From IMG/VR virus record IMGVR_UViG_3300009983_000002: a stretch of 64,000 nt of DNA; one strand, written 5' to 3'. Origin of the DNA: a virus (taxonomy: Duplodnaviria > Heunggongvirae > Uroviricota > Caudoviricetes). Positions within the stretch are counted from its first letter, which is position 1, and each line of letters opens with the position of its first letter. The translations under genes and the position numbers were made by a program. The notes under the pieces are model-generated. The model saw only the letters and a list, made by a program, of their open reading frames with translations. It ran no database searches and had not been told where the DNA came from. Shown piece after piece: positions 16,462 to 62,753 of this stretch.

Positions 16462-18645
16462 TCACGCCTTCTTCGCGTTGTCAACAAGCAAAATGTAGTC
16501 CAACAATTTTTGCATCGTCTCTTCGTCGGCGTGGTAGCGCCACGAGTTGCCGACGATGACCTGGAGCAGCGGGTAGGCTTCGACGACGGCCTTGGCCTCT
16601 TCCACGGGGCCCGGGTGGGCCGCCGGGAGTTCGATGCTGCCCCGCAGGACTTCGAGAACGCGGAAGCGTTCAAGGATGTCCTTGGTGTCTTCATCTTCCG
16701 CGAGTTCCCGATAGAAGCGCACTTCGTTAAGAAGCTTCTTCAGCGGCGAGTCGTCGCCGAGGATCACCGACTTGTCGAGCCCGCTTTCGATCAGGTTCAC
16801 CGCGAACTTCCAGCCGAGTTCGTCAGTGACGTTCTCTTCGTAGTTCTTGAAGGCCGCGACGAAGTCGAGATCGACCGTGAGATCGGTGGCGGCGGCCACG
16901 ATGTCCCAGAAGCTTTCCCAGCCTTCGTGCTTGTTCGGGATGTTCTTGTAGGTCGCGGGAATGCCCAAGAGTTCGAAGTCGGCGTCGAGCTTCTTGAACT
17001 TCTTCAGGGCCTCGATCAGCGAGTTGATGTAGGAGATCGAGACTTCCTGGCCCGCGTTCATCGGGCAGTTCTTCGACAGGTGGACGTAGACGCCGCCGTC
17101 TTCGGGCTGCACGTCGGCCTCTTCGAACTTGTAGCCTTCGAGCACCTTGACCTTCGGAGCGGCCTTGCGGTCGAGCACCGACTGCGGAATCGGAAGGTCT
17201 TCGAGCTTCACGAATTCCGACGCCGGAGGACGCCCGAGTTCGACCAGGAGCTTAGCGAAGCTGCGCTTGCCGAATTGTTCGGTGGTCTGAATCCAAACCA
17301 AGTCAGCACGTTCGCTGTAGCTGAATTGTTCGAAGTATGCGGCGATGCGCGCCGCAATGTGCTTCACCGGAGTGTTCATGTCCTGGATCAGGAAGACCGT
17401 CTTCTGGCCGACTTCCAGGTCAATGTGGTTGCGGTGTTCGAACTTGATCTTCGGGCGCTTGTTGCACACGTCATAGCTGCTGACGAACGCCAGCGAGCAG
17501 CCCAAGCGCGACTTGATGCGCGTGCGGGTGTCGAGTTTCTTCGAGCGCCACACTGCATTCTTGCGGGCGTATTCGCGGAACGAAGTCGGCAGGTTGTAGG
17601 TGTTGAGCACTTCGTTCAAGCGCTTGCGGGCCGTCCAGCGCGTCTTCGCCGTCGAGATCGACTGTTCGATCTTCGCCAGGATTTCGGCCTCGACGAGCTT
17701 CAGATAGCGCGCGATGCTCTTCTTCGTGAGGTCGGTATATTCCAGGTGTTCACGCGAAGGCGTGATGCTGAAGTCGCCGATTTCGCCTTCGATGAAAAGC
17801 GGAGCGCCAAGGAGTTCGCGTTGGTGCTGCGAGAACGAGCCGTCGAGCGCGTGAGTGTCGATGGGATAGATCACGCAGCCTTGCTTCACGGCAGCGCGTT
17901 GCACGAGTTGGTTGGGCTTCACGAGCTTCCAGTTCGTGCCCTCAATCGACGATTCCAGCGGTTCGCCTTCGACCTTCGAGCCCGAGAGAACGGGGAAAAC
18001 ATCGAAGCCCGGCAGCGTCATGCGAGCGGCGCGCTTGAAGTGCTCGACATCCTCGACCTTAACCGAGAACGAGACTTCAAGGCCTTGCTCTTCGTCCGTG
18101 ACCTCATTCGAGAACAGGACGATCTTCGGCTTGCCTTCTTCATTGATGAAGCAGTTGTAGATGCGCTTGCGGCCTTCGAAGCGCACGATGACGTTGAAGC
18201 TGTCGGTGTAGGCGAACGGGGTCTTCGAGCCCAGGCCGAACTTACCGACTTGCTTGTCAGCGGCGTCGAGAATCTTGGCCTTCTGGGCCTGCGTCGCGCC
18301 CTTGGGGACAGCGCCGTCTTTCGTGGATTCGAAGACGCGGGTGTAATTACGCATCACGAATTCGTGGGTCATGGAGACGCCGAAGTCGCGGACGCTGAAG
18401 TAGGGCTCCCATTGCGTCGGCAGGTGGCATTCGAACGGACGCTCCGGGGTGCCGCGCATGGCGTGGGCGTCGAAAGCGTTCGACCACAGTTCTCGGATGA
18501 TCGCTCGCGGCTTGTCCGAATAGATGCCGTCGATCAGAAGGCGGAAGGCCTTCGCGGTCGCGGCAATCGTGAATTCGCCTTCTTCTTCCACGCCATCGAC
18601 GAAAACGTCGCGACCGGAATCGAGGGTATTGGCTTCGGCTCTCAA
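16462..18645 (-). CDS. rIIA-like protein (N-terminal GHKL/HATPase_c-type ATPase domain)
   Basis: 727 aa; RAIIRELWSNAFDAH resembles the Bergerat-fold N-box (ELxxNAxDA) found at the rIIA N-terminus. TTG start with SD AAGGAG 6 nt upstream. Confidence 0.5.
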   Translation of the reverse strand: MRAEANTLDSGRDVFVDGVEEEGEFTIAATAKAFRLLIDGIYSDKPRAIIRELWSNAFDAHAMRGTPERPFECHLPTQWEPYFSVRDFGVSMTHEFVMRNYTRVFESTKDGAVPKGATQAQKAKILDAADKQVGKFGLGSKTPFAYTDSFNVIVRFEGRKRIYNCFINEEGKPKIVLFSNEVTDEEQGLEVSFSVKVEDVEHFKRAARMTLPGFDVFPVLSGSKVEGEPLESSIEGTNWKLVKPNQLVQRAAVKQGCVIYPIDTHALDGSFSQHQRELLGAPLFIEGEIGDFSITPSREHLEYTDLTKKSIARYLKLVEAEILAKIEQSISTAKTRWTARKRLNEVLNTYNLPTSFREYARKNAVWRSKKLDTRTRIKSRLGCSLAFVSSYDVCNKRPKIKFEHRNHIDLEVGQKTVFLIQDMNTPVKHIAARIAAYFEQFSYSERADLVWIQTTEQFGKRSFAKLLVELGRPPASEFVKLEDLPIPQSVLDRKAAPKVKVLEGYKFEEADVQPEDGGVYVHLSKNCPMNAGQEVSISYINSLIEALKKFKKLDADFELLGIPATYKNIPNKHEGWESFWDIVAAATDLTVDLDFVAAFKNYEENVTDELGWKFAVNLIESGLDKSVILGDDSPLKKLLNEVRFYRELAEDEDTKDILERFRVLEVLRGSIELPAAHPGPVEEAKAVVEAYPLLQVIVGNSWRYHADEETMQKLLDYILLVDNAKKA

Positions 18646-18813
18646 GTGTGTCTCCTTCGTTGATGCACCCTTCTACCCAACGCAGGTGGGGCAGTCAACA
18701 ACAATCGTGCTTAATGTCATAAAATAATTTCTGTTGACAGCCCCAACCAGTGTGGTAGAGTCGGGATTGGCTCGACTAAGGGCCCCGGTGACGGGCTTCA
18801 AACGCCTGTTGAT
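18646..18813. promoter_or_regulatory. divergent intergenic control region (leftward promoter for rIIA block, rightward promoter for plus-strand block)
   Basis: 168 bp non-coding between divergent gene blocks. Contains TTGACT, 25 nt, then TGCATCAACGAAGGAG leader (minus strand), CACCTGCGTTGGGT motif, and a second TTGACA (plus, 18747). Confidence 0.5.
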
Positions 18814-19113
18814 ATGCTGGGGCCCTTCAGCGGCCTCGTTAACCTTGGAAAGGGACCATCAGTGTTGAAATTCCTCGCCGCCATCGGCGCAATCGTCTTA
18901 GGTGCGTTGGGTGTTGCCGCCCTCGTTGTCCTCGGCGTGCTGCTCGGCATCATCGGCGGCGTGATCGCCGCCTCGATCTTCGCCTTCTTCTTCCCCGCGA
19001 CCGTGGCCGCGCTTCTCAGCGTGACCCCGTTCACCGCCGCGTATCAACTCGGCGCCGCACTGGGCTTCGTCGGCGGCTTCTTCAAGGCCACGCTGACGAC
19101 GAAGAAAGACTAA
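18814..19113 (+). CDS. small membrane protein
   Basis: 99 aa, almost entirely hydrophobic (Gly/Ala/Val/Leu-rich helices). First gene of plus-strand block. Confidence 0.5.
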   Translation: MLGPFSGLVNLGKGPSVLKFLAAIGAIVLGALGVAALVVLGVLLGIIGGVIAASIFAFFFPATVAALLSVTPFTAAYQLGAALGFVGGFFKATLTTKKD

Positions 19114-19505: not shown

Positions 19506-19736
19506 ATGAGCGTGACGACACTGAACACAACGAGCCCGGCGGACCTCGTGAGAGCGAAGGTCAAGGAAGCCCTCGCCTTCTTCCAGGGCCAAGCAAACAC
19601 GAATGAGCTTTACGCGAGCACGCTCGCCGACGCTCCTTTCGATGACCTCCCACGTTCCGGCATCTACGCCGATGGTGCCCGCGTTGGCCGCGATGAAGTT
19701 GTCGCTGCTGTCTTAGCTGCGTTGGGTGCCGAGTGA
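19506..19736 (+). CDS. hypothetical protein
   Basis: 76 aa; strong SD GAAGGAG 7 nt upstream. Confidence 0.5.
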   Translation: MSVTTLNTTSPADLVRAKVKEALAFFQGQANTNELYASTLADAPFDDLPRSGIYADGARVGRDEVVAAVLAALGAE

Positions 19737-20359
19737 TCTACGCGACTTCGATGCCGCTCCGGCGGCGCCGGGCTCGACGCAAACCCTCACGGCCACGCGA
19801 TAGCCAGAAGCGTAAGGTTTACGCTGCGGAGAGCGTGCTGAAGGGGAAGATGCCGCTGGCCGACATCGACGCTGCGGCCAAACTCGTCGGCAAGCTCTTG
19901 AACGCTGCGGTCTTCAAGCATCGCTACGATCTCCGGCTTGAACACTCTCCGGTTCACGTTGGCTTGACGCGCCGCGATAGCGGCCACTCCTGGGGCTCGG
20001 TGAAGGGCATCAGGCTGCATCCCGAATGGGGCCTAGACGGCTACATCGTCTGCCACGAGATGGCGCACGTCGTGGCCCTCCGCATCTACGGGCGCGAGAA
20101 CATCGCAGCCCACGGGTGGCAGTGGGCCGAAATCTATCTGATCCTCGTCCTCGCGGGGATGGGTCGCGCCGCCCACGACGAATTGAAGGCGAGCTTCAAG
20201 GCCGCAGGCATCCGGTTTACCAAACCCCGGCAGGGCCGCGTGCTCACCCAGGATCAGCGGAAAGCGCTGGCCGAAAGGCTCGAAGCGGCACGGAAGATGC
20301 GTATTGTCGGCAGCGGAGAAAACCGCTTGACAGGCGCTACGGCTATGGTAGAGTCCTGA
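19733..20359 (+). CDS. putative zinc metallopeptidase (HExxH)
   Basis: 208 aa; YIVCHEMAHVVAL HExxH motif. Basic N-terminus. Exact start (GTG 19733 or ATG 19751) uncertain. Confidence 0.45.
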   Translation: MIYATSMPLRRRRARRKPSRPRDSQKRKVYAAESVLKGKMPLADIDAAAKLVGKLLNAAVFKHRYDLRLEHSPVHVGLTRRDSGHSWGSVKGIRLHPEWGLDGYIVCHEMAHVVALRIYGRENIAAHGWQWAEIYLILVLAGMGRAAHDELKASFKAAGIRFTKPRQGRVLTQDQRKALAERLEAARKMRIVGSGENRLTGATAMVES

Positions 20360-20376
20360 CATCGAAAGGAGACAAC

Positions 20377-20688
20377 ATGAACACCCGTCAAAAGAACATT
20401 CGCGATCTCATTAACTCTGCGAGAGGCCGCTTCGCCTCCGTCGAGTTCGTGAAGAAGGATGGCACTGTGCGCGTTCTGCAAGTCCAACCGGCTGCCGCGA
20501 AGTTTCACGTCAAGGGCGACAAGGCCAGCGCCGCCGCCCAGCAGGCGACGAAGACCCGCAAGGAAAACAATCCTAACCATCTAGCGGTTTGGGATGTCGT
20601 CGATCAGTGCTTCAAGACCGTCGATCTCGACACCGTTTTCGCGGTGACGGTTGACAAGACGCGCTATTCGGTGTCTGCTCGGGGCTGA
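20377..20688 (+). CDS. hypothetical protein
   Basis: 103 aa; real start is ATG inside track ORF 20026..20688, preceded by CATCGAAAGGAGACAAC (strong SD). Confidence 0.55.
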   Translation: MNTRQKNIRDLINSARGRFASVEFVKKDGTVRVLQVQPAAAKFHVKGDKASAAAQQATKTRKENNPNHLAVWDVVDQCFKTVDLDTVFAVTVDKTRYSVSARG

Positions 20689-25292: not shown

Positions 25293-28200
25293 ACCGCCTC
25301 ACCAACGAAGAATCGTTCTTCGAAGTTTTGTCCAACGTATTCGGTGACGCCAAAGGCGACGCCGTCTTTTTCGCTGACGGCGACAACCGTCTGGAGTCGC
25401 GTGACTACGATGAAATCGTAGAGGCGCTAGGCGACGGCGCGTCCCTCACCCTCGTAACTTCCAAGATGGAAATTCTTGGGATCGCCGCCGAGAGTATCGG
25501 CGAATTCCCGACTCCTACGTTCATCGTCGGCCACGAAGAGCGCGACTTCGAATTCAACGTCTGGCTCTTCAAGACGCCGGTCGATTTTACTTTCGGCTCG
25601 AAGCTGTCGCTGGGGCTGGAAGCTGCGGCGAAGAAGCTCGACGAGAACTCGCACATTGGTTCGCAATTCCCAGTGCCTGGGGTGAATGGCTGGGACTTCA
25701 TTGGCGATGTCGGCCCGCGTTGGGATGTCGCTGAATTTCTCGATGCCGTTGGGATCGACGCCGACTCCGTCCAGTCGCAAGTCGAGAAGGTATTGTTCCC
25801 GAGCGGGAGCAATAACGCGGAATCCGACGAAAACCCGCCTGATGTTACCGTTCGGGAACAATCGAGCGCTGAAGCCACAAATGTTACCGATGGGGAACAA
25901 CTGAAGATCGGCGACGCGCTGATCTACGGTGACTTCGACGACGCCTTCTTGGCGACGAAGTTGAAACTCGGGGTCAGCGTCAAAGGCGCGAAGACGAAGC
26001 CCGGCGAGTGGCAGAACGCCGAACTCACAGTCACCGATTTGCTCCTGCTGCTCTCCGAACATGAGCAAGGGGCGAAGGACGGAAAGTGCATCCTTCAAGG
26101 CGAAGTCATCGACGGCGAGCGCAAGGCCCAAAGCGTTCGCGCGTGTCACATTCTCATGCTCGACCTCGATACCGGCGAGGACTTGCAGGACACGATCAAG
26201 AAGCTCCAGCAACTGGGGCTGGCCGCTGCCGTGTGGACTACGCACAGTCACTTGAAGCCCTCGACGAGCATTCGCAAGGATGCCGTGGTCCGGTTCATCA
26301 AGGAGAAGCGCGAGCCTAACCTGGATGACGTGAAGCGGTATCTGCTCGAAGTCAAGCGGTATCGTCCGTATATTATCGACTCGGCTGCGTTGGGTCCAGC
26401 AGAGCACACGAAAGAAGGTCTTCAGTTGGTGGTCAACCACCTGCCGATGCCAAAGTTCCGTGTGATGTTCTTTTTGTCCAAGCCTTTTGTGTTTGCCGAC
26501 TTCCTCGACAACCGCACGGCCAACGAAGCCTGGAAAGCTGCCTATGAGCGCACGTCGGACATGCTTGGCGCGTTCTACGACAAGGCTTGCACCGACCCGT
26601 CGCGTCTCATGTATACGCCGCGACACGGCGAGGGCGCGAAGGGTTACAGCATCCACTTCATCGCAGGCAAGCCCCTCGATCTCGACGCGGCCCCGGCGCC
26701 CGCCGACGCCCGGCAAGCGGCCTTCTCTGCGGCTGCTGCCCAAACCTCTGTCATCGACAAACGCGACGTAAAGTCAAGCGACTATCAAACGTCGTGGCTT
26801 CGCGGCTTCTTGGCGAAGAACAGCGACGTGTTCCAGGTCGCCGACTTCTTTGAAGCCTACGGCGAACCCCGTGGCCCACGCAATGGGGCCGGGGCTCACT
26901 ACCGCTGCCCGAACGATGACGAGCACACGAACGCAGGCGACCCCGAAGACAAAGGCTTCTACTGCGTGAACGCAGGCGAAGGCGACTATGTCGAGGGCTT
27001 CATCGCTAAGTGTATGCACGCTTCCTGCGCCGAGAAGCATCGCGGCCACATGCTCGACTTGATGGTCGTCGAACACGATCTCAGCGAAGAAGACCTGAAT
27101 CAGTTTTGCGACGAAGCGCTACGTCCCGATCAAGAACCGGCGAAGCAAGAGGCTCCTAAGCAACAGGCCCCCATCGTTCTCGAAGCTGAAGAAGGCGACG
27201 AAGACCAGACAGACAGCGATGACGACTATACGGCTTCGTCGGCCTACGACGAGCCACATATCAAGCGCGCCATGCAGACCATGAATAAAGAATGGGCTGT
27301 TGTTACGCTTGGAACAGACGTTCGTATTATGCGGGAGCCGAAGCAAGCTGGTAAAATGCCGAGCTTCCACGGTATCGAAGCCTTCCGCAATCTCTATTCA
27401 AATAAGAAAATCAACGTCCCTGTAGAGGGTGGCTACAAAGCTGTTCCAGTGACCAAGTTGTGGCTTGAATGGCCGCAGCGGCGCACGTTCTTTGATGGCG
27501 TGATCTTCGAGCCAGAAGAGCAAAATCCTGACGCCTATAATTTGTGGCGGGGATACCCCACGCAAGCTAAGCGTGGCTCTTGGTCTATGCTGCGTGAGCA
27601 CGTCTACGACAACATCTGCGCTGGCGATGAAGAGCGCTTCAACTGGTTCATGACGTGGTTGGCGCAGATCGTCCAGTTCCCGGGCCGCAAGATGGGTTCG
27701 GCGGTCGCGATCAAGGGCTTGAAGGGCACGGGCAAATCTAAGCTCTTCGAGTGGGTGAAGAAAGGCCTCGGCAATCACGCGATCAAAGTCAGCCAGAAGA
27801 AACACATTGTCGGCGACTTCAACGGCCACCACAAAGGTGTGACGTTGATGGTCTGCGAAGAAGCCTTCTGGGCTGGTGATCACGCTGCGGGCAACGCCCT
27901 GAAAGACCTGATCACCAGCGACACCATGATGTTCGAACAGAAGGGCATCGACGCGGTTCCGATCTCAAACTATGTGCGGCTGGCTTTCATCTCCAACGAA
28001 CACTGGATTGTCCCCGCCGGACTCGAAGACGAGCGTCGCTATTTTGTGATGGAGTGTAAGGACACCCGTCGCGGTGATATTCCTTTCTTCATCGCTATCG
28101 ACGAGCAAATGGAGAATGGCGGGCTTGAGGCCATGTGGTATGAGTTGTCCAACTGGGACGCTCACGAACTCTATCCCGAGAAGGGCTGGAACATTCTCCG

Positions 28201-32935: not shown

Positions 32936-33028
32936 TACGGCTGCCGCACCTGCGTTGGGTGTCATAAAATAGTGCTTGACTTCGTGGCCCGGGACTGGCA
33001 TAACCAGGGCATCGAAGGAGATTTGGAA
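32936..33028 (+). promoter_or_regulatory. promoter/leader region with conserved elements
   Basis: CACCTGCGTTGGGTGTCATAAAAT, then TTGACT, then 25 nt, then GGGCATCGAAGGAGATTTG immediately before ATG 33029. The same leader occurs at 55358-55376 on the minus strand. Confidence 0.5.
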
Positions 33029-34573
33029 ATGACCGTCACGTTGAGCATCCAGCAGGCAGCCGCCATTGATTGGGCGGAAAACGGCGAAGGTAACGCCGTG
33101 GTCGAAGCCGTCGCTGGCGCGGGTAAGACCTTCACGCTGGTTGAAATCCTGGAGAGACTGAGCCGTAAGGGCCTGACCACGGCGATGGTCGCCTACAACA
33201 AGTCGATCACCGTCGAAATCAAAGAGCGCACGGACGCCCGTGGCCTCGACACCGAAGTCGGCACGGCGCACAGCTTCGGCTTCAAGGGCGTGCAACGCGC
33301 TCTGGGCTTCCCGCAAGTGGAAGCCAAGAAGAACCGCGACATCATCCAGAAGCTTGCGATCCCCGGCTGGTATGCCGAGGTCGTGGACAAGCTCGTCAGC
33401 CATGCGAAGAACGCTGGCATCGGCATCGCCCGCCTTGGCGGCGACATCGACGACAACGCGAAGTGGATCGAAATCTTCGACCGCCACGATCTGATCGCGG
33501 CCCTGCCCGAAGAATTCCGCTACGGCGTGAACGCGATGGAAATCGCGATCAACGACGCGAAGCGCGTGCTCCGCAAGTCGAACGAAATCATCCGCGACGT
33601 GATCGACTTCGACGATATGTGCTACCTGCCGCTGCTGCTCGACATCCCGATGCCGCAATACGACTTCGTCCTTCTCGACGAAGCCCAGGACACCAACGAG
33701 ACGCGCCGTGCGCTCGTCGCGAAGATGGTGAAGCCTACTGGCCGCCTCGTGGCCGTTGGCGACCCCCACCAAGCCATCTATGGCTTCACCGGCGCCGACA
33801 ACGACTCTTTGGATCGCATCAAGCGCGACTTCAACGCCGTGACGCTGCCGCTGACCGTCACCTATCGCTGCCCGAAGGCCGTCGTCGCCGTCGCTCAGCA
33901 GTGGGTGTCGCACATTCAAGCGCACGAAAGCGCGCCGGAAGGCGAATACGACGCCGTCAGCTACGAAGACTTCATGGCGATGGACTTGGTCAAGACCGAC
34001 GCCATCCTCTGCCGCAAGACCGCGCCGCTGATCAAACTCGCGTATGCCTTGATCCGTCGCGGCACGCCGTGCAAGGTCGAAGGTCGCAACATCGGCAACG
34101 GCTTGCTGAAGATCATCCGCAAGTGGAAGAAGGCGAAGACGATCTCGGCTCTGCTCGACAAGGTTCGCGAGTGGGGTGATCGCGAGACCAAGAAGGCGCA
34201 GGCCGTGAAGGCCGAAGCCCGCATCGCCGCCATCGAAGACCTCGTGGAGTGCATCTACGAACTCGCCGCTCCGTTCTCGGGCCGCGACCCCGTCGCCCTG
34301 CTCGAAGAGCGCGTCAACGTCATGTTCGGCGACGACGTGACGGCGGCTGGCCTGATCACGCTGGCGACGATCCACCGCTCGAAGGGCCGCGAATGGAAGC
34401 GCGTCTTCTGGCTTGGCCGTGAAGCTTGGCAGCCGTCGAAGATGGCGAAGCAACAATGGCAGCTTGATCAGGAAATCAACCTGATGTATGTTGCCGCCAC
34501 TCGTGCGAAGGAAACGCTGATCGAAGTCAGCGCTCCGCCGGAGAACGAGAAGCCGAAACAGGAGCGCTTCTGA
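33029..34573 (+). CDS. UvrD/PcrA-like SF1 DNA helicase
   Basis: Start at ATG following the conserved leader (track ORF 32972 begins earlier at a GTG inside the promoter). GAGKTFTLV (Ia), DEAQDT (II), VGDPHQAIYGFTGA (III), TIHRSKGREW (VI). Confidence 0.8.
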   Translation: MTVTLSIQQAAAIDWAENGEGNAVVEAVAGAGKTFTLVEILERLSRKGLTTAMVAYNKSITVEIKERTDARGLDTEVGTAHSFGFKGVQRALGFPQVEAKKNRDIIQKLAIPGWYAEVVDKLVSHAKNAGIGIARLGGDIDDNAKWIEIFDRHDLIAALPEEFRYGVNAMEIAINDAKRVLRKSNEIIRDVIDFDDMCYLPLLLDIPMPQYDFVLLDEAQDTNETRRALVAKMVKPTGRLVAVGDPHQAIYGFTGADNDSLDRIKRDFNAVTLPLTVTYRCPKAVVAVAQQWVSHIQAHESAPEGEYDAVSYEDFMAMDLVKTDAILCRKTAPLIKLAYALIRRGTPCKVEGRNIGNGLLKIIRKWKKAKTISALLDKVREWGDRETKKAQAVKAEARIAAIEDLVECIYELAAPFSGRDPVALLEERVNVMFGDDVTAAGLITLATIHRSKGREWKRVFWLGREAWQPSKMAKQQWQLDQEINLMYVAATRAKETLIEVSAPPENEKPKQERF

Positions 34574-37478: not shown

Positions 37479-37777
37479 GCAAGCGCATCGAAAAGTCGAT
37501 CTACGGCCAGCGCATCTTGGAGACCGTTGCGAAGTTTCAGGGGGCATCCGCTGTCTTCGGCAAGGCCTCGAAGCACAACTTCGTCACCCTGTCCTACGGC
37601 GGGAAGTCCCGCGACGTGATATTCCCCGCGTCTCCCAGCGATCACCGTGGGGCCTTGAATTGCGCCTCAGACTGTGCGAAGGTCTTGACTGCGTTGGGTG
37701 CCGTTCGCGTCAAGAGCGAAAAGGGTGGACAACAGAAGGCGTCCGAGCAACAACGGAATATGGAGAAGGCCTCGTGA
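37475..37777 (+). CDS. hypothetical protein
   Basis: 100 aa; ATGA coupling. Confidence 0.4.
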   Translation: MSKRIEKSIYGQRILETVAKFQGASAVFGKASKHNFVTLSYGGKSRDVIFPASPSDHRGALNCASDCAKVLTALGAVRVKSEKGGQQKASEQQRNMEKAS

Positions 37778-40005: not shown

Positions 40006-40919
40006 CGCCACCCGAGCCACACGGGAATCCGTGGCTTCTCCTTAGAGCCTTCGCGCTGGAACTTATACTTCGCGAGCTTGCCCATGACCACGGCCTCGTT
40101 ACCGGCCATGATCTCATTCCAAATCGCGATACGTTCGTCTTCACTCCAGCCGTTGCCGAGCTTGAAGTGCTCTGCGGGCCAGCCGTGTAGGCGCACGACG
40201 ACGCCGCCCAGCATCCCCGCCTTCGTCTTCCCCGCTTTGTGCGTGCTGCGCTTCGCGTAGCCGCGTTCGTCGCGGGTCTGTTCGTTCTCGTTGTGCTCGC
40301 GTTCGTAGTAGCCGATGACTTCGCCTTCAGCGTCTTCGAAGGGCTTGAGCTTGATCAGAATCTGCTCTTTCTCCGTGCTGCGTCCAAACTTGTAGAGCGC
40401 TGCGGGGTCGCGGAGCATCAGGCCTTCGTAGCCGTCAGCGATATAAGCGTGCATCATTGCCTCCGCCTCTTCCCATGTGTAGACTGGGAAGTGCTGCACG
40501 AGTTGCACATGCGGGCCGATAGCCGCACACTTGTCGGCGGCGATGCTCAGGCGGTCGAGGTAGCTCAGGGTCGGGCGGTCGAAGTCATCGACGTAGTCGA
40601 AGACGTGGAAGACAACGCCATCGGCAACGGCATCGTGCGTGGAGAATGCGGACATCGTTGTCTGCATCGCATCTGCGGCGTTGCAGGGACCGGCGACGAT
40701 CTCGCCGTCGAGCCCTGAGAGTCGGGGGTCGGAGAAGAGGGCTGATAGGGCTGCGTTGGGTATGGGCTTCAGGGTCCGGGACAGGGCTTGGCCGTCCCTG
40801 ACGATCATGCGGATGCCGTCGAACTTCGGGCTCGCCCAGAAGGGAAAGCGTAGCGGGTGTTTCTCCCGGTCTGGGTGTTCGGCAAGGAGGGGCTTGAACC
40901 CCAGGACGCGCTTAGCCAC
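39975..40919 (-). CDS. ATP-dependent DNA ligase
   Basis: GTG start (SD GGAG 6 nt upstream); 315 aa. Motif I SPKFDGIRM (KxDGxR), motif IV GYEGLMLRD, motif V LIKLK. Confidence 0.8.
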   Translation of the reverse strand: MAKRVLGFKPLLAEHPDREKHPLRFPFWASPKFDGIRMIVRDGQALSRTLKPIPNAALSALFSDPRLSGLDGEIVAGPCNAADAMQTTMSAFSTHDAVADGVVFHVFDYVDDFDRPTLSYLDRLSIAADKCAAIGPHVQLVQHFPVYTWEEAEAMMHAYIADGYEGLMLRDPAALYKFGRSTEKEQILIKLKPFEDAEGEVIGYYEREHNENEQTRDERGYAKRSTHKAGKTKAGMLGGVVVRLHGWPAEHFKLGNGWSEDERIAIWNEIMAGNEAVVMGKLAKYKFQREGSKEKPRIPVWLGWRHPDDAGSLP

Positions 40920-43985: not shown

Positions 43986-44660
43986 TCAACGCTTTTCGGG
44001 GCGGGTCATGTAGGCTTCGAGGGCCTTTTTCAGGACCGGGGCCGTCTCGTCGTCGATGGCGATCATCTGGCGAACGACGCCGCCGGAGTTCGTGCCGATG
44101 AAGAGGAATCCCGAATCAGGAGGCAGCGCAAATTTCAGGTGTCCCCGGCCCTGGAGGTTCGCCTTGTCAGCGATCTCATACTCGCGGGCGGGCATCACGG
44201 CTTCGAGCCTTTGGGGGTAGAATTGCTCGACGAGTTCGATGAAGGCCTCGGCCAGCGGGGTCGCCCAATAGACGTTGGCCCCGTGAGCGCTGGTGTAGAC
44301 GTGGCCGCAGAGGCGATCCTCGGTGCCGTGGAGGGAGGTCGGGACGCCCTTGATGCGGGAGTATTGCATCATGTCCATCGACGCCCCGGTGCGTCCGAGT
44401 TGCGTGGCCGTGAACTTCGGGTCGGGCTCGCCGCCGCGCCGTGCGGCATGGGTGCGCTTGACCAATGTGTAGATCGACGCCAGCGCCGAATCAGTGATCG
44501 TGTGGGCCTTCACATACAGAAGGTGATCGAAGTGCGGAAGGCTGCTCTTGAAGCTGCCCTTCACCGTGTCCCACGGCGGTTGCTTCTTCCGGGAGTTCCA
44601 CGAACGCTTGCGTTGGGTTTGCATGGGGTGGGTTATTCCACCAAATCCAAATCGCGTCAA
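43986..44660 (-). CDS. hypothetical protein
   Basis: 224 aa. Confidence 0.4.
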   Translation of the reverse strand: MTRFGFGGITHPMQTQRKRSWNSRKKQPPWDTVKGSFKSSLPHFDHLLYVKAHTITDSALASIYTLVKRTHAARRGGEPDPKFTATQLGRTGASMDMMQYSRIKGVPTSLHGTEDRLCGHVYTSAHGANVYWATPLAEAFIELVEQFYPQRLEAVMPAREYEIADKANLQGRGHLKFALPPDSGFLFIGTNSGGVVRQMIAIDDETAPVLKKALEAYMTRPEKR

Positions 44661-45315: not shown

Positions 45316-46000
45316 GGCGTGACCCCGCGTAGGCGTTGATCCCGTGGCGCTTGAGGACCGCGACGAAAGCGGCGGCGCCAGCTTCTTTGATGTCAACACG
45401 CTGGCCGACATAGTCGCCGGGGTTCCAGAATTCCCAGCCCACGTCCCAGGCGCGTTCGCCGAAGGGGCGGGGATTGACGGCGTTCTTCGCGGCCTTCTTC
45501 AGATAGGCAACGAAGGGGCCCTGGGCTTTCGGAAGACGGGCCCAGGCGAACCCGCAAGCGCCGACGTGATCGACTGGGCCCGGGCCTTTGTGAGCGGCGA
45601 CGATGGCCTGACACGCGGCTTGTGCGGCGGCCTTGGCTTCGACGAAGATCGCAGCGTAGTCGCGATTGTCTTCGACCTTCGGGGCACGCGGCTTCTTCGC
45701 CGCGACGGGCTTGATGGGGAACGCGAACTTGGTCTGCGTGGCGATGTAGTTGTAGACCGGCGCGAGTTCGTCGCCGTAGAGGCCGACCGCGACCTTCCGG
45801 TAGCTCTTGGGGATGCCGATATGGAACGACTTCGACCAACGCGGCTGGATGCGGCTGACCTTCGCGGGCACGCCGTTGGTCTCTCTCACGAAGACACGGT
45901 AAATGCGGCGCGCATAGTTACTCTCGGCGCCGACATCGAGTTCGATGTCGAAGACGGTGAAGCCCGTGATATTCGTGCGCTTGAGTTCAGTAACGTCCAT
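45308..46000 (-). CDS. hypothetical protein
   Basis: 230 aa from Met14 (SD AAGGAG 6 nt upstream). Confidence 0.45.
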   Translation of the reverse strand: MDVTELKRTNITGFTVFDIELDVGAESNYARRIYRVFVRETNGVPAKVSRIQPRWSKSFHIGIPKSYRKVAVGLYGDELAPVYNYIATQTKFAFPIKPVAAKKPRAPKVEDNRDYAAIFVEAKAAAQAACQAIVAAHKGPGPVDHVGACGFAWARLPKAQGPFVAYLKKAAKNAVNPRPFGERAWDVGWEFWNPGDYVGQRVDIKEAGAAAFVAVLKRHGINAYAGSRLD

Positions 46001-46063
46001 GTGGGTCTCCTTTGATGGAGAGACCATAGCACATTCCATACCGGGCGCAAGCGCTTTTCGTGG

Positions 46064-49961: not shown

Positions 49962-50028
49962 GGTGTCCCTCCTTCTTTCTCGCGTTAGTGCGTTGGGTCC
50001 CGCCGGAGCGGGACCCTTCGCGTTCGTA

Positions 50029-51405
50029 TCAGGCCGACTTGTCGGTCTGGGTGGCCGCCGGAGCGTTGGTGTTCACGCCCAGACGGGCGAGAGCCGCAGC
50101 ACCTGCGTCGGTGTTGGCGAAGCCTTCGAGCAGCGCGCCGAAGGCGAGACCGCCCTTGGAGCCCAGCAAGTCGCCGATGCTCGCGATGCCCGAGGCCGCG
50201 TCGCCGGAGTTGGCGATGACCTTGATGTTCGCGGCTTCGAGCGCGCCAGCGTTCGCGATGCCGACAGCTTGCGCCGCCTTCACTTTCTCGATGCTGACGA
50301 GATAGGCTTGGTATTCCGGCAGAGCCGCGATCTTCTCGGCGAGAGTGATCTGGGCTTCGACCGGCGCCAAGAGCAGCAGACGTTGCGCGTCGGCAGTGGC
50401 GACACCGTTGACCTGGGTCGCTTCGGCCTTGCGCTTTTCTTGTTCCAGCACGCCTTCGGCGGTCAGGATCGTCTTTTGCTTTTCGCCTTCAGCGAAGATG
50501 ATGTCGGTCGCTTTGACCTGATCGGCTTCGACGATGGCGGCGTTCTTCGCGATTTCGGCCTTGCGTTGGGTCTCGACGCCGAGAACATCCATTTCGCGCT
50601 CTTTCGTCACGCGGGCTTGCGCCTGGATTTCTTGCTTCGAGACTTCGTTCGCGATGCCGACCGCTTGCAGTTGTTGAGCTTGGCGCTCGCCGACCGCTTG
50701 CTTCGCTTGTTCGTTGCGAAGATCAACTTCTTGCTTCGCCGCAATTTCTGCGGTTTCGGCAGCCTGCCGGTTCTTCGCGACTTCGAGACGCGATTCCATG
50801 TCGATATGGCTGATCTTCTTCGCCATGATGTTGGCGATGACCTTCGAGCCATCGGCGTCGCGGATGTCCATGAGTTCCAGGTTCTTCACGGGCTCGACGC
50901 CCCAGTTCTGGAGTTCAGTGCGGACTTCGTTGGTGAAGGCATCGCCGAAGGTTGAGCGGTCGCCCATGATCTTCGAGATTTCTTCGTTCGCCAGAATTTT
51001 ACGCACCGCGCCCTGCACGACGGCCTGAAGTTGTTGCTTCAGTTCGTTGAAGTTGGCGACGCGCTTGGCGGCGACGTTGGTGTCGGCGATGCGGAAGAAC
51101 GCGACGAGGTCGAGTTCAAACGGCACGCGATCTTTGTCATACGCTTTGTAAGCGTGCAGCGAAAGATCGAAGTTGTTCACCGGCAGTTCGATGACGGTCA
51201 CGCCGAAGATCGGAATGAACGACGGGATTTTGTAGTAGACGTTGCCATCCGGCATGTTCGCGCCGTATGACGTGGTCTTCCGCGCCGACTGCACGATATG
51301 CACGGTGTTGGTTTCGACGACCACGCGCCACGCGAAGGCGAGGAACAGGCCGACGATGACGAGCAGAGCGAGCACGCCAACAACGATGGGGATCAAGAGG
51401 TCCAT
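50029..51405 (-). CDS. SPFH/Band-7 (flotillin/prohibitin-like) membrane protein
   Basis: 458 aa; N-terminal TM helix, SPFH-like core, then very long Ala/Glu/Gln/Lys-rich coiled-coil (AEIAAKQEVDLRNEQAKQAVGERQAQQLQ...). Confidence 0.7.
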   Translation of the reverse strand: MDLLIPIVVGVLALLVIVGLFLAFAWRVVVETNTVHIVQSARKTTSYGANMPDGNVYYKIPSFIPIFGVTVIELPVNNFDLSLHAYKAYDKDRVPFELDLVAFFRIADTNVAAKRVANFNELKQQLQAVVQGAVRKILANEEISKIMGDRSTFGDAFTNEVRTELQNWGVEPVKNLELMDIRDADGSKVIANIMAKKISHIDMESRLEVAKNRQAAETAEIAAKQEVDLRNEQAKQAVGERQAQQLQAVGIANEVSKQEIQAQARVTKEREMDVLGVETQRKAEIAKNAAIVEADQVKATDIIFAEGEKQKTILTAEGVLEQEKRKAEATQVNGVATADAQRLLLLAPVEAQITLAEKIAALPEYQAYLVSIEKVKAAQAVGIANAGALEAANIKVIANSGDAASGIASIGDLLGSKGGLAFGALLEGFANTDAGAAALARLGVNTNAPAATQTDKSA

Positions 51406-52771: not shown

Positions 52772-53385
52772 GCGGCCTTATTCTTCCTCCGCTGATCTTC
52801 GATGTAAGAGGGGCCGGGGGTGAAACCCGGGTCTACCCACGCGGCCAGCCGCTTGCGTTGTTCGGCAAGGTGGCGCTCACGTTGCTTCTTCTCTTGATCC
52901 AGACGGGCAAGGAAGTCGGCCTTGAAGCTCTCGTAGGTCTTGGTCGCCCAGCCAGCATAGGCCCAGGGAAGGGCGTTGCGGCCCTTCTCATTGATCATCT
53001 CGGTTCGCATGGCGTCGAGATGTTGTTGGTTCTCGACAATCAGGGTCATGGGGATCGTGTGGCGGGTGGCGCGGAATTGTTGGCGCTCTTCCCAAGCGAT
53101 GACGACGTTGGCGTTCGCGTCGTTCGTCACCTGATGGATGCGGGCATAGAGTTCGGTGAGGCGTGTGGAGCAGGCATCGACGTGGGCTTCCAGCACCTTC
53201 TTCGAAACCTCATACGGGAGTTCGCGGGCGCCAAAGCACGATGACGTTTGTTCGCCCCAACCGAAGGGACGCTGATAGCCGTGGTGAGCGATGACCGCGT
53301 TCTTCACGCCGATCTCGCGACCGCAGGCTTGGCAGGTGCCTCTCTTCGTGGCTTCCATAGCCAGAAATTGTTGGCTGTAGGTCAA
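52768..53385 (-). CDS. hypothetical protein (TTG start)
   Basis: 205 aa. CQACGRE...HHGY...C cluster. SD AAAGGAGAG upstream. Confidence 0.4.
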   Translation of the reverse strand: MTYSQQFLAMEATKRGTCQACGREIGVKNAVIAHHGYQRPFGWGEQTSSCFGARELPYEVSKKVLEAHVDACSTRLTELYARIHQVTNDANANVVIAWEERQQFRATRHTIPMTLIVENQQHLDAMRTEMINEKGRNALPWAYAGWATKTYESFKADFLARLDQEKKQRERHLAEQRKRLAAWVDPGFTPGPSYIEDQRRKNKAA

Positions 53386-53533
53386 ACGTCTCTCCTTTCG
53401 ATCTGACGACGCTAGCAGTGTCCTATGCTAATCGCAAGCCACATTCGTAGTTAACACGCATTTTCTTTGGGAACGCCTTTACGTTGAGTGACTTAGAGCT
53501 ACATCCCCATTGGGATTAGAAAAAGGAAATGAG
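53386..53533. promoter_or_regulatory. divergent intergenic region
   Basis: 148-bp non-coding between divergent starts (minus 53385, plus 53534), lower GC. Both flanking genes have strong AGGAG-type SDs. Confidence 0.35.
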
Positions 53534-54019: not shown

Positions 54020-54154
54020 TTAGCGGATGATGGAGAAGACATAGTCGGGCCCCAGTTGGCGGATGATCTCGACGCACTGCATCGAATAGTAATACGGTGG
54101 CGCAAGTGCGTTGGGTTCTTCCCCACGCTTGTGGATGACGTAGTAGGGGATCAT
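54020..54154 (-). CDS. tiny protein (44 aa)
   Basis: MIPYYVIHKRGEEPNALAPPYYYSMQCVEIIRQLGPDYVFSIIR; ATGA coupling. Confidence 0.25.
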   Translation of the reverse strand: MIPYYVIHKRGEEPNALAPPYYYSMQCVEIIRQLGPDYVFSIIR

Positions 54155-55357: not shown

Positions 55358-55420
55358 CTCAAATCTCCTTCGATGCCCCAAGGTGCCACACCTGCGTTGG
55401 GTGGTCAAGCAAATTCGTGC
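55358..55420 (-). promoter_or_regulatory. promoter/leader (minus strand) with conserved elements
   Basis: On the minus strand: TTGACC, then 25 nt containing ACCCAACGCAGGTG, then GGGCATCGAAGGAGATTTG, then ATG. The leader is 19/19 identical to the one at 32996-33014. The -35 overlaps the 3' end of the CoiA-like gene. Confidence 0.45.
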
Positions 55421-61815: not shown

Positions 61816-61846
61816 TAGTCTCGCTAAATCGGAAGGAGAAACCGAT

Positions 61847-62735: not shown

Positions 62736-62753
62736 GAGTCGAACATGCCGAAC

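What the first reader, a model, noticed from the sequence alone, without database searches (positions are those of the whole stretch)
32936..33030. Three operon-leading promoters share TTGACT, then 25 nt, then an identical leader GGGCATCGAAGGAGATTTG, plus a CACCTGCGTTGGGT box
The three sites:
- Site A (32972-33028, plus strand; drives UvrD-like helicase).
- Site B (55358-55408, minus strand; drives gene 55357 and downstream small genes).
- Site C (18646-18701, minus strand; drives rIIA/rIIB).

They align as TTGAC(T/C), then 19 nt, then a hexamer, then (G)GCATC(A)ACGAAGGAG. The A and B leaders are 19/19 identical. Each region also contains CACCTGCGTTGGGT, but its orientation and position relative to the -35 differ between sites, so it is probably an operator rather than a core element.

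Related strong ribosome-binding regions CATCGAAAGGAGA recur at 20362 and 53395.

This points to a coordinately expressed regulon whose leader sequence is conserved, which might mean host sigma plus a phage factor.
Basis: seen in the sequence. Interest (0 to 1): 0.65.

Follow-up and report, generated by a model that had tools for sequence, protein, structure and literature searches.

The report
Phage promoters sharing a dispersed motif
Three start regions in an uncultured phage genome look like ordinary host-type promoters with a very short leader; the shared box belongs to a strict 10-base motif of unknown function that is scattered on one strand across the non-structural genome.

Summary
CACCTGCGTTGGGT occurs exactly three times (18675-, 32947+, 55389+) and GGGCATCGAAGGAGATTTG exactly twice (33007+, 55360-). 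Neither is expected by chance.

The three-promoter regulon reading is too narrow.
- **Promoter and leader family.** At least 12 sites in the window share gcTTGnnn, 16-17 nt, TAnnnT, 6 nt, ATC(G)AA(A)GGAG, then 4-8 nt to the start codon. That is a host sigma-70-type promoter, a start at the A, and a strong ribosome site. A relative 72-85% identical in protein keeps the geometry with GTCGAA(A)AGGAG.
- **Box family.** The box is the long form of TGCGTTGGGT. There are 16 exact copies (0.15 expected), about half inside genes, and 6 of 6 alignable copies are conserved in that relative. Between 8.2 and 56.6 kb, 13 of 14 lie on the + strand whatever the gene strand. The strand flips beyond the terminase genes. 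No copy was seen in the tail or portal DNA examined.
- **What sets A, B and C apart.** They carry the box and have poor -10 hexamers. A fourth such promoter lies at 56.2 kb. In B, C and that promoter the box fills the -35/-10 spacer. In relatives it sits in other spacers.

Best reading: an operator for an unidentified sequence-specific repressor. A nick-site or Chi-like polar function is not excluded.

The parts
32947..32960 (+). Site A box CACCTGCGTTGGGT, 15 nt upstream of the -35
   Evidence: The block CCTGCGTTGGGTGTCATAAAATAGTGCTTGACT is 100% conserved in relative L001 while its flanks diverge.
32960..32969 (+). TGTCATAAAA A+T-rich element between the box and the -35 of A. It also occurs at 18715-, 59698-, 59771+ and 59793+.
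   Evidence: 5 copies of the 10-mer against 0.03 expected.
32976..33031 (+). Site A promoter and leader cassette: TTGACT, 17 nt, CATAAC, 6 nt, ATCGAAGGAG, 8 nt, ATG of the UvrD-like helicase gene
   Evidence: The relative has TTGACT-17-CATATT. The consensus scan does not call this site.
55389..55402 (+). Site B box. It lies on the + strand, so it is reverse-complemented relative to the minus-strand promoter, and it sits directly next to the -35 inside the spacer.
55355..55408 (-). Site B promoter and leader cassette: TTGACC (contains the TGA stop of the upstream CoiA-like gene), 17 nt, CACCTT, 5 nt, ATCGAAGGAG, 7 nt, ATG of an 86-aa gene
   Evidence: The orthologous promoter in L099 is TTGACC-16-TATGGT without a box. 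The consensus scan does not call this site.
55415..55424 (-). TTAAGCACGA upstream of the -35 of B, inside the 3' end of the CoiA-like gene. The same 10-mer lies upstream of the -35 of C at 18705-18714.
   Evidence: 3 exact copies in the window.
18675..18688 (-). Site C box, in forward orientation inside the spacer. Its last T is the first T of the -10 TAGAAG.
18643..18698 (-). Site C promoter and leader cassette: TTGACT, 17 nt, TAGAAG, 5 nt, ATCAACGAAGGAG, 6 nt, TTG start of rIIA
   Evidence: Relative L007 keeps TTGACC-16-TAGAAG but has no box in the spacer.
56197..56234 (-). It matches site C at 28 of 32 nt.
18734..18761 (+). Divergent partner promoter of C: TTGACA-16-TAGAGT. Its spacer GCCCCAACCAGTG is a decayed reverse box. 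In relative L007 the intact box is in this spacer (TTGACA-CCCAACGCAGG).
20327..20379 (+). Box-free family member D: TTGACA-16-TAGAGT, 6 nt, ATCGAAAGGAG, ATG
45998..46050 (-). Box-free family member G: TTGCGC-16-TATGGT, 6 nt, ATCAAAGGAG, ATG
53383..53437 (-). Box-free family member E: TTGCGA-17-TAGCGT, 6 nt, ATCGAAAGGAG, TTG
56690..56730 (+). Near-leaderless promoter H of the terminase-side operon: TTGACA-17-TAGCGT, 9 nt, ATG
61284..61339 (-). Box-free family member I: TTGACG-16-TATTGT, 6 nt, ATCGGAAGGAGAAACCGATATG
61793..61849 (+). Box-free family member K: TTGACA-17-TAGTCT, 6 nt, ATCGGAAGGAGAAACCGATATG
62454..62507 (+). Box-free family member F: TTGCAA-17-TAGGCT, 6 nt, ATCGAAGGAG, ATG
63228..63284 (+). 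Box-free family member M: TTGCAA-16-TATTCT, 7 nt, ATCGGAAGGAGAAACCGATATG
63491..63547 (+). Box-free family member N: TTGCGC-17-AATAGT, 6 nt, ATCGGAAGGAGAAACCGACATG
4814..4823 (-). Dispersed TGCGTTGGGT copy inside the RecD/PIF1-like helicase gene, sense strand, read as Arg-Ala-Leu-Gly
8224..8233 (+). Dispersed copy, antisense inside the RNase_T-like exonuclease gene. Conserved 10/10 in L007.
18903..18912 (+). Dispersed copy inside a small membrane-protein gene (GCG TTG GGT read as Ala-Leu-Gly). Conserved in L007.
19718..19727 (+). Dispersed copy at the 3' end of a 76-aa gene. Conserved in L007.
26386..26395 (+). Dispersed copy inside the P4-alpha-like primase-helicase gene (Ala-Leu-Gly frame). 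Conserved in L001/L007.
37690..37699 (+). Dispersed copy inside a 100-aa gene, sense strand
40752..40761 (+). Dispersed copy, antisense inside the DNA ligase gene
44609..44618 (+). Dispersed copy, antisense near the start of a 212-aa minus-strand gene
49989..49998 (+). Dispersed intergenic copy. Its GGGT forms part of a GGGTCCCGC/GCGGGACCC hairpin just downstream of the Band_7-like gene.
50562..50571 (+). Dispersed copy, antisense inside the Band_7-like gene
54107..54116 (+). Dispersed copy, antisense in a small minus-strand gene
56576..56585 (+). Copy in the divergent regulatory region 56208-56728. That region also holds the variant TGAGTTGGGT at 56405 and further GTTGGGT cores at 56439 and 56548.
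60821..60830 (-). Copy embedded in the GTTAAGGTTAAC iteron array. It is the first strict copy of the minus-strand block that continues beyond the window end. Conserved in L099.

Best explanation
**Proposed mechanism.**
- Sites A, B and C are three of at least 13 promoters in this 85-kb uncultured siphovirus-like genome that host RNA polymerase with its primary sigma factor would read.
- Every member has the same geometry: (gc)TTGnnn, 16-17 nt, a -10 hexamer, 5-7 nt, then ATC(G)AA(A)GGAG and a start codon 4-8 nt later.
- The identical leader is therefore the predicted start nucleotide plus a strong, possibly extended, Shine-Dalgarno sequence. The mRNA would carry a 5' UTR of only about 16-20 nt.
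- What sets A, B and C apart, together with a fourth promoter at 56.2 kb, is a copy of a lineage-specific asymmetric motif: core TGCGTTGGGT, promoter form (C)CCTGCGTTGGGT.
- In B, C and the 56.2-kb promoter the motif fills the -35/-10 spacer. In A it lies next to the A+T-rich stretch upstream of the -35.
- I propose that a sequence-specific DNA-binding protein, phage-encoded or host, binds the motif and shuts off these promoters by occluding RNA polymerase.
- The many copies inside genes would be further binding sites of the same factor, loosely comparable to the operators plus stoperators of mycobacteriophage L5.

**Shown and inferred.**
- Shown: the sequences, their over-representation, their conservation and their strand polarity.
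- Inferred: the start sites, the existence and identity of a binding factor, and the direction of regulation.
For: **Promoter family.**
- Twelve of 14 leader-motif hits are preceded by a -35 and -10 in strict register.
- A -35/-10 regular expression of my own, derived from the first eight members, gives 15 hits against 4.3 in mononucleotide shuffles.
- The -35 and -10 are conserved at the orthologous A and C sites of the relative. The relative's own promoters keep the geometry with a GTCGAA(A)AGGAGT leader.

**Sub-class.**
- Only A, B, C and the 56.2-kb promoter carry the box.
- A, B and C fail the tool's sigma-70 scan because of CATAAC, CACCTT and TAGAAG, whereas the box-free promoters at 18734 and 20327 pass.

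**Link between box and promoter core.**
- Three of 9 intergenic copies lie wholly within a 17-nt spacer. My rough estimate is that spacers make up about 5% of non-coding DNA.
- In the relative the box sits in the spacer of the divergent partner promoter, directly next to its -35 (TTGACA-CCCAACGCAGG). That is the same arrangement as window site B.
- Both orientations and two registers occur inside spacers. That fits steric repression and does not fit a geometry-dependent activator.

**The motif is functional DNA.**
- There are 16 exact 10-mers against 0.15 expected, with almost no single-mismatch variants in the 7-nt core.
- Six of 6 alignable TGCGTTGGGT copies are identical in the relative, where flank identity is 81%.
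- Ala-Leu-Gly is encoded as GCGTTGGGT in 3 of 13 cases. Codon usage predicts 0.4% per case.
- By my rough estimate copies are about 3-4 times enriched in non-coding DNA.
- A 119-aa homeodomain-like HTH protein is encoded at 1891-2250.
Against: - No transcription start, binding protein or expression data exist for this metagenomic phage.
- The copies inside genes are oriented by genome position, not by transcription. Thirteen of 14 strict copies between 8.2 and 56.6 kb are on the + strand across blocks of both gene orientations. The relative L002/L101 has 9 of 9 on one strand across a convergent junction. A promoter regulator does not predict this, and it is the opposite of the L5 rule.
- The strand flips to minus beyond the terminase genes: 7 of 7 in the L012 extension and 8 of 8 in L099.
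- The orthologous B and C promoters of the relative work without a box in the spacer. The box is therefore dispensable for those promoters.
- In A the box does not overlap the core promoter.
- The motif's very sharp specificity resembles an enzyme recognition site as much as an operator.
Confidence: 0.5

Rival explanations
1. The box is mainly the recognition site of a strand-directed DNA process and is not a transcription operator. Two candidates are site-specific nicking of virion DNA, as in phages tf, T5 and phiKMV, and a Chi-like signal that attenuates a host exonuclease entering from the genome ends. On this reading, copies in promoters are incidental, because non-coding DNA accepts such a motif most easily.
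For: - The 10-mer is strict and asymmetric, and single-mismatch variants sit at background frequency.
- Strand polarity is independent of gene orientation and is conserved in two relatives.
- Phage tf offers a direct parallel: 14 copies of the 9-mer TACTRTGMC, all on the top strand across two convergent transcription units.
- The polarity flips between 56.6 and 60.1 kb, next to the terminase genes and a repeat-rich non-coding stretch. Copy density is highest on both sides of that point.
- If the physical ends lie there, both blocks are in the orientation in which an enzyme entering from an end meets the 3' side of the motif first. This last point is inference from the known RecBCD/Chi rule.
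- The box in the C/C' intergenic region has shifted by about 60 bp between the two phages but kept its genomic orientation.
Against: - Three of 9 intergenic copies fall exactly into -35/-10 spacers, and the relative's copy does too.
- Copies are tightly clustered and fused to iterons. No copy was seen in the tail or portal DNA examined. Nicking does not explain either pattern.
- From my own knowledge, known Chi sites are 5-8 nt, not 10-12.
- In tf and T5 all nick sites are on one strand, whereas here there are two opposed blocks plus conserved exceptions at 18675 and 56211.
- The genome ends are not known.
Confidence: 0.3
2. A, B and C are a factor-dependent middle class of promoters. A phage protein bound to the box would activate host RNA polymerase at promoters whose -10 is too weak to fire alone, in the manner of T4 MotA or a class II activator.
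For: - The box-bearing promoters are the ones with non-canonical -10 hexamers.
- The orthologous B promoter in the relative has no box and a good -10, TATGGT. The box and a weak -10 therefore co-vary.
Against: - The box lies 15 nt upstream of the -35 in A, directly after the -35 in reverse orientation in B, and directly before the -10 in forward orientation in C. An activator that contacts polymerase needs a fixed position and orientation.
- The -35 hexamers are perfect TTGACY. They are not replaced, as they are in MotA-dependent promoters (my own knowledge of T4 middle promoters).
- C's TAGAAG is the same in the relative, where the spacer has no box.
Confidence: 0.1
3. The similarities are only the footprint of recent duplication or gene conversion of promoter cassettes, and the box has no function of its own.
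For: - C and the 56.2-kb promoter match at 28 of 32 nt.
- A and B share 19 of 19 nt of leader.
- Four small genes share a 22-nt leader, with one mismatch in the 63526 copy.
- The relative's B and C promoters share a spacer with each other.
Against: - Duplication cannot explain 12 copies inside unrelated genes, in several reading frames and with rare codons.
- It cannot explain their positional conservation or their strand polarity.
- It cannot explain the opposite orientation of the box in B and C.
Confidence: 0.07
4. The sites are sigma-54 promoters, with TGGCAT-N5-GGGCA in A and TGGGTA-N5-GTGCA in C read as -24/-12 elements.
For: A and C have GG-N10-GC in the right register, and A and B share TGGCA.
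Against: - B has GG-N9-GC.
- The relative's site A has no TGGCA.
- A start about 12 nt downstream of the GC would remove the conserved Shine-Dalgarno sequence from the mRNA.
- Nine box-free promoters with the same leader have canonical TAnnnT -10 hexamers.
Confidence: 0.03

Closest known systems
Primary-sigma (sigma-70 type) promoters of Alphaproteobacteria. The rhizobial consensus CTTGAC-N17-CTATAT is quoted from my own knowledge.
   Same: (G)CTTGAC-like -35, 16-17 nt spacer and TAnnnT -10 in most members. Relatives of this phage infect Alphaproteobacteria or lie in their genomes.
   Different: The leader is unusually short and is conserved as RTCGAA(A)GGAG. A, B and C have -10 hexamers that fail a standard consensus scan.
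Operators and stoperators of the mycobacteriophage L5 (Cluster A) immunity repressor (PMC9283540)
   Same: An asymmetric motif of about 13 bp with more than 20 copies per genome. It occurs both in promoters, overlapping the core, and elsewhere in the genome. It is lineage-specific.
   Different: L5 sites lie in short intergenic gaps, and their orientation follows the direction of transcription and is required for function. Here half the copies lie inside genes, and their orientation follows genome position, not transcription. No repressor was identified, and a temperate lifestyle is not established for this phage.
Localized single-strand interruption (nick) sites of phages tf, T5 and phiKMV (PMC3517423)
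   Same: A strict asymmetric motif of about 9-10 bp with about 14-16 copies. The copies lie on one strand across oppositely transcribed gene blocks, and near-variants are rare.
   Different: tf and T5 sites are on a single strand throughout. Here there are two opposed blocks, with clustering in regulatory DNA and placement in promoter spacers. Nicks cannot be seen in assembled sequence.
Start-associated sequences (SAS) of Cluster K mycobacteriophages (PMC3203893)
   Same: A conserved 13-bp sequence containing the ribosome-binding site lies a few bases upstream of the start codons of many non-structural genes. This parallels the RTCGAA(A)GGAG leader.
   Different: Here the conserved leader always follows a -10 hexamer at a fixed 5-7 nt. 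It is therefore more simply read as start site plus Shine-Dalgarno sequence. No extended inverted repeat (ESAS) is present.
Chi sites recognised by RecBCD/AddAB
   Same: A G/T-rich asymmetric motif that acts in one orientation. The polarity here would be correct for both arms if the genome ends lie near 57-60 kb.
   Different: Known Chi sites are 5-8 nt (my own knowledge). The host and its Chi are unknown. The motif is missing from related phages, including the prophage-like element in a Rhizobium genome.

Membership tests
Sigma-70-type promoter | -35 hexamer close to TTGACA | tested here: met
   TTGACT, TTGACC and TTGACT in A, B and C. The hexamer is conserved in relatives.
Sigma-70-type promoter | -10 hexamer close to TATAAT (A at position 2, T at position 6), 16-18 nt downstream of the -35 | tested here: inconclusive
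   The spacing is 17 nt in all three. The hexamers are CATAAC, CACCTT and TAGAAG, and the consensus scan calls none of them. Nine sister promoters have TAnnnT. The relative's A has CATATT and its B has TATGGT.
Sigma-70-type promoter | A mapped transcription start about 7 nt downstream of the -10 | not testable with these tools
   No RNA data are available. The start at the A of ATCGAA is inferred from the fixed 5-7 nt distance in 12 cassettes.
L5-type operator/stoperator system | An asymmetric site of about 13 bp present in more than 20 copies across the genome, including sites that overlap an early promoter | tested here: met
   There are 16 strict and 21 TG(C/A)GTTGGGT copies in 64 kb, and more beyond the window. 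Copies lie in the spacers of B, C and the 56.2-kb promoter.
L5-type operator/stoperator system | Site orientation correlates with the direction of transcription | tested here: not met
   Of the intragenic copies, 5 are sense and 7 antisense. The strand stays the same across convergent gene blocks in the window and in L101.
L5-type operator/stoperator system | Sites lie in short intergenic gaps | tested here: not met
   Twelve of 21 copies are inside coding sequence.
L5-type operator/stoperator system | A monomeric two-domain immunity repressor is encoded by the phage | tested here: inconclusive
   The only evident small DNA-binding protein is a 119-aa HTH_23 protein. Nothing links it to the motif. 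Relatives may be temperate, but no full-length integrase was seen in the parts of this genome examined.
Phage nick (single-strand interruption) sites | A strict short asymmetric consensus confined to one strand | tested here: inconclusive
   The consensus is strict. Thirteen of 14 copies are on + between 8.2 and 56.6 kb, but an opposed minus block lies beyond 60 kb.
Phage nick (single-strand interruption) sites | A physical nick with 3'-OH and 5'-P at the site in virion DNA | not testable with these tools
   Only assembled metagenomic sequence is available.
Chi site | Over-represented and strand-skewed in the host chromosome, and recognised by the host RecBCD/AddAB | not tested
   The host is unknown. 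The one genome-collection scan returned a related prophage-like region in Rhizobium rosettiformans with no copy of the 9-mer.
Sigma-54 promoter | GG-N10-GC (-24/-12) with TGGCAC-N5-TTGCW | tested here: not met
   B has N9, and the element is absent from the relative's site A.
Known RNA families (Rfam) | A covariance-model match at or above the gathering score | tested here: not met
   There were no matches in the whole window.

The most novel reading that the evidence does not exclude
TGCGTTGGGT could be a new kind of polar genome signal in a lineage of alphaproteobacterial siphoviruses. A directional DNA process such as nicking, end-protection against a host exonuclease, or replication would read it. 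Its two opposed strand blocks would meet at the genome ends or the origin, next to the terminase genes. The same motif would also have been recruited into the -35/-10 spacer of early promoters, coupling early transcription to that process.
Probability: 0.2. Interest if true: 0.7.

Novelty: new variant of a known kind. Interest (0 to 1): 0.4.

Why it matters
- The promoter and leader cassettes are ordinary. They still give a usable promoter model for an uncultured phage group: TTGnnn-17-TAnnnT-6-RTCGAA(A)GGAG.
- The dispersed 10-mer is the interesting part. It is under purifying selection even inside genes, its strand follows genome position and not transcription, it appears confined to the non-structural part of the genome, and it moves between promoter spacers in related phages.
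- If it is a repressor site, it extends the L5 stoperator idea to Gram-negative phages with different rules. If it is a nick or Chi-like site, it gives a sequence handle on a poorly understood feature of phage DNA.
- Either outcome can be tested directly once a host or synthetic DNA is available.

Tried and rejected
- **Literature search by sequence.** Searching for GCGTTGGGT and ACCCAACGC returned only primers and unrelated sequences. A search for Chi sequences of Alphaproteobacteria returned nothing useful.
- **Close relatives in the phage collection.** Megablast found none. Distant blastn and tblastn reached only Brevundimonas, Dinoroseobacter, Ruegeria, Sphingobium and 'Microcystis' phages.
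- **Motif in more distant relatives.** Leszy, Mwe-JY26 and the Rhizobium rosettiformans prophage-like locus lack the motif. Mwe-JY26's most over-represented word is a local 29-bp tandem repeat, not a dispersed analogue.
- **Replication signal.** GC skew follows transcription, not the motif polarity, so it gives no independent replication signal. No origin-like repeats were found at the possible second polarity switch at 4.3-8.8 kb.
- **Collection scans that found nothing useful.** The 19-mer leader was absent from viral contigs. The CoiA-like protein found no relatives in viral or metagenome contigs. The RNA ligase found none in viral contigs. The second metagenome scan returned only the relative already held.
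- **Uninformative strains.** L012 and L014 are identical at sites B and C.
- **Rejected motif readings.** I considered the box as an ECF-type -10 (CGTT), as a -35 variant (TTGGGT), as a MotA-like box, as an RfaH ops-like element and as a primase recognition site. None fits: nothing is conserved at the required distance, and orientation is unrelated to transcription.
- **Binding-protein search.** Pfam scans of candidate small proteins found only one HTH protein. Presence and absence profiling across relatives was too sparse to single out a binding protein.


Full report
**Source and context**

The window is the last 64 kb of an 84,922-bp metagenomic contig, ENA ERZ27279440 k141_33558. Window coordinate plus 20,904 gives the contig coordinate.

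The contig is a tailed-phage genome of 59.7% G+C. The gene layout is as follows:

| Window region | Gene strand | Content |
|---|---|---|
| 1-18.6 kb | minus | Replication and nucleotide-metabolism block: class II RNR, ThyX, dNMP kinase, helicases, family A DNA polymerase, rIIB, rIIA |
| 18.7-39.8 kb | plus | RNA ligase and PNKP, P4-alpha-like primase-helicase, SspB-like protein, methyltransferase, UvrD-like helicase |
| 40-56.2 kb | minus | DNA ligase, AAA ATPase, Band_7 protein, many small genes, CoiA-like nuclease |
| 56.7-59.7 kb | plus | Terminase operon |
| 59.7-64 kb | mixed | Repeat-rich, mostly non-coding stretch with small genes |

- In a near-identical strain the last region continues for about 2.7 kb to the portal gene.
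- Tail genes lie left of the window.
- No close cultured relative exists.
- Distant relatives are siphoviruses of Alphaproteobacteria. A syntenic prophage-like region lies in Rhizobium rosettiformans W3.

**Check of the observation**

- CACCTGCGTTGGGT is exact at 18675-18688 (minus), 32947-32960 (plus) and 55389-55402 (plus).
- GGGCATCGAAGGAGATTTG is exact at 33007 (plus) and 55360 (minus), against 0.01 expected.
- The -35 hexamers are TTGACT, TTGACC and TTGACT. Each is followed after 17 nt by CATAAC, CACCTT and TAGAAG, and after 5-6 more nt by ATCGAAGGAG (A and B) or ATCAACGAAGGAG (C).
- The box lies 15 nt upstream of the -35 in A. It is inside the spacer and reverse-complemented in B. It is inside the spacer and forward in C.
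- Only C heads a divergent unit. A and B are internal promoters in co-directional arrays, and B's -35 contains the stop codon of the upstream gene.

**The leader belongs to a large promoter family**

A search for ATC..GAAGGAG-type leaders finds 14 hits.
- Twelve are preceded in strict register by (gc)TTGnnn, 16-17 nt, a -10 hexamer and 5-7 nt.
- Besides A, B and C these lie at 20361+, 46016-, 53402-, 61305-, 61390+, 61828+, 62489+, 63263+ and 63526+.
- Four of them share the 22-nt leader ATCGGAAGGAGAAACCGATATG, with one mismatch in the 63526 copy.
- Two further promoters appear leaderless: 56690+ (TTGACA-17-TAGCGT, 9 nt, ATG) and the 56.2-kb promoter.
- A -35/-10 regular expression of my own, derived from the first eight members, is enriched about 3.5-fold over mononucleotide shuffles.

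The relative from sample 3300009982 (loci L001, L007, L099) is 80% identical in the helicase, 72% in rIIA and 85% in TerL.
- It keeps the -35 and -10 at the orthologous A and C sites.
- Its promoters follow the same geometry with a GTCGAA(A)AGGAGT leader.

The fixed distance puts the predicted start at the purine 7 nt after the -10. The conserved leader is then the start site plus a strong Shine-Dalgarno sequence. GAAAGGAG would pair with a ...CCUCCUUUC 16S rRNA tail; that is inference from general knowledge. No Rfam family matches anywhere in the window.

**The box belongs to a dispersed motif**

Counts in the window:

| Word | Observed | Expected |
|---|---|---|
| GCGTTGGGT | 23 | 0.67 |
| CGTTGGGT | 26 | 1.67 |
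| TGCGTTGGGT | 16 | 0.15 |

- Position-by-position counts show a sharp motif. The seven 3' bases GTTGGGT tolerate essentially no change. Position 3 accepts A in five cases. The flanks are random.
- Non-coding copies usually carry a CC prefix, giving CCTGCGTTGGGT.
- Twelve of 21 TG(C/A)GTTGGGT copies lie inside genes, in several frames, 5 sense and 7 antisense.
- Ala-Leu-Gly is encoded as GCG TTG GGT in 3 of 13 cases, although codon usage predicts 0.4% per case.
- Six of six alignable strict copies are identical in the relative, where flank identity is 81%. The two TGAG variants are not conserved.
- Copies are also over-represented in non-coding DNA. In the 21.5 kb where deposited gene calls leave 2.7% non-coding, 1 of 4 copies is intergenic. 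Over the window 9 of 21 are.

**Strand polarity of the motif**

- Between 8.2 and 56.6 kb, 13 of 14 strict copies are on the + strand. With the TGAG variants the count is 17 of 19 (p = 0.0007). This span covers blocks of both gene orientations.
- Eleven of 12 intragenic copies are on the + strand (p = 0.006).
- Right of the terminase genes the strand flips. All 7 copies from 60.1 to 65.7 kb are on minus (window plus the L012 extension), as are 8 of 8 in L099.
- In the more distant relative L002/L101 (helicase 62% identical), all 9 GTTGGGT cores are on one strand across a convergent gene junction.
- No copy occurs in about 9.5 kb of RNR and tail-gene DNA left of the window, or in the 4 kb held around the portal gene.
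- The motif is absent from Brevundimonas phage Leszy, 'Microcystis' phage Mwe-JY26 and the Rhizobium prophage-like locus. It therefore marks a narrow lineage.

**What distinguishes A, B and C**

- They carry the 14-mer form of the box, they use TTGACY, and their -10 hexamers fail the tool's consensus scan. The box-free neighbours at 18734+ and 20327+ pass it.
- A fourth member was missed: TTGACG-gctcGACCTGAGTTGGG-TAGAAG, 6 nt, ATG at 56234-56197 (minus). It heads the CoiA-like gene and matches C at 28 of 32 nt.
- The plus-strand partner of C at 18734 has the spacer GCCCCAACCAGTG, a decayed reverse box. In the relative the intact box sits there (TTGACA-CCCAACGCAGG), arranged as in window site B, and C's own spacer is box-free.
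- The relative's orthologue of B, upstream of a 77%-identical first gene, is TTGACC-ccggcatagaacctgc-TATGGT with no box.
- So boxes turn over between promoters but keep landing inside -35/-10 spacers. Three of 9 intergenic copies in the window do so, plus the one in the relative.

**Interpretation**

- The promoter and short-leader reading is well supported by anatomy and conservation, though no start site has been measured.
- A motif that sits in either orientation and in two registers inside spacers fits occlusion of RNA polymerase by a bound factor better than geometry-dependent activation. I therefore favour an operator for a sequence-specific repressor (confidence 0.5).
- The intragenic copies could be extra binding sites, as in the operator and stoperator system of mycobacteriophage L5.
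- Membership in that family fails on two defining points. Orientation does not follow transcription, and half the sites are intragenic.
- The polarity, the sharpness of the motif and the flip next to the terminase genes are what phage nick sites show (tf: 14 copies of a 9-mer, all on one strand across convergent units), or what an end-directed Chi-like signal would show. That rival stands at 0.3.
- The two functions could coexist.
- The sigma-54 and pure-duplication readings are rejected for the reasons given under the rival explanations.
- The only evident small DNA-binding protein is a 119-aa HTH_23 protein at 1891-2250. Nothing ties it to the motif.

**Verdict**

- The finding is real but ordinary as a promoter observation, and the proposed three-member regulon is really a 12-plus-member promoter family.
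- The useful result is the lineage-specific, polar, selected 10-mer that the box belongs to. It is a new variant of known kinds of dispersed phage motifs, and its function is unresolved.

Noticed in passing
window 60615-60870: There is an array of about 12 iterons, GTTAAGGTTAAC and variants such as GTTAACCCTAA, spaced 16-27 nt apart. Some are fused directly to the box, as in GTTAACCCTAACCCAACGCAGG. The same iteron is clustered in relative L099 (5884-6082) and in the distant Brevundimonas phage Leszy at 68.77-68.94 kb. It could be an origin, a terminase-binding site or a regulator site. The TTAAC words recall CtrA/SciP-type sites, but the spacing is mostly not N7.
   Followed up: partly
window 59698-59850: Immediately after the terminase stop codon there are TGTCATAAAA and two to four TTTTATGACAGGGACCCT-like units. 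The same TTTTATGACA word sits upstream of promoters A and C.
   Followed up: partly
window 56208-56728: The divergent regulatory region between the CoiA-like gene and the terminase-side operon holds about nine GTTACAT/ATGTAAC words: three ATGTAAC on the left, then GGTTACATC three times and GTTACAT three times on the right. It also holds a cluster of (G)TTGGGT cores. It looks like a multi-operator control region.
   Followed up: no
window 61284-63547: Four small genes of unknown function each have their own promoter and a nearly identical 22-nt leader, ATCGGAAGGAGAAACCGATATG, at 61305-, 61828+, 63263+ and 63526+. This moron-like early gene cluster lies between the terminase and portal genes.
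   Followed up: partly
window 60490-60600: There is a run of CTCTGAATC...TTTTGGC-type repeats just upstream of the iteron array.
   Followed up: no
L019 (Rhizobium rosettiformans W3, NZ_STGU01000004.1 390697-412649): A region syntenic with the replication module (RNR 60% identical, DNA polymerase, helicase, ThyX) lies inside a 436-kb bacterial contig. Members of this phage group may therefore be temperate or plasmid-like in Rhizobiales. Mwe-JY26 also carries an integrase and an annotated immunity repressor after its terminase genes.
   Followed up: partly
window 22.5-24.3 kb and 38.8-39.8 kb: The window holds an RNA-repair gene set: T4 Rnl1-like RNA ligase, HAD/PNKP phosphatase, AAA_33 kinase and a second RNA ligase. 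This suggests a counter-defence against host anticodon nucleases. A short 212-aa tyrosine recombinase lies at about 21.1-21.7 kb.
   Followed up: no
window 49989-50016: A box copy overlaps a GGGTCCCGC-cgga-GCGGGACCC hairpin downstream of the Band_7-like gene. GGGACCC words also recur in the 59.8-kb repeats.
   Followed up: no
L017/L018 (Microcystis phage Mwe-JY26, 61.0-61.2 kb): A 29-bp tandem repeat, GCAGCCTGGAGAGCCTGGAGACCAGGGGC, lies in the equivalent post-terminase region. This repeat-rich segment seems to be a conserved architectural feature of the group, with lineage-specific sequences.
   Followed up: no
window 18705, 55415, 62906 (all minus strand): TTAAGCACGA occurs three times exactly. 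Two copies lie at the same distance upstream of the -35 of B (inside coding sequence) and of C (non-coding).
   Followed up: no
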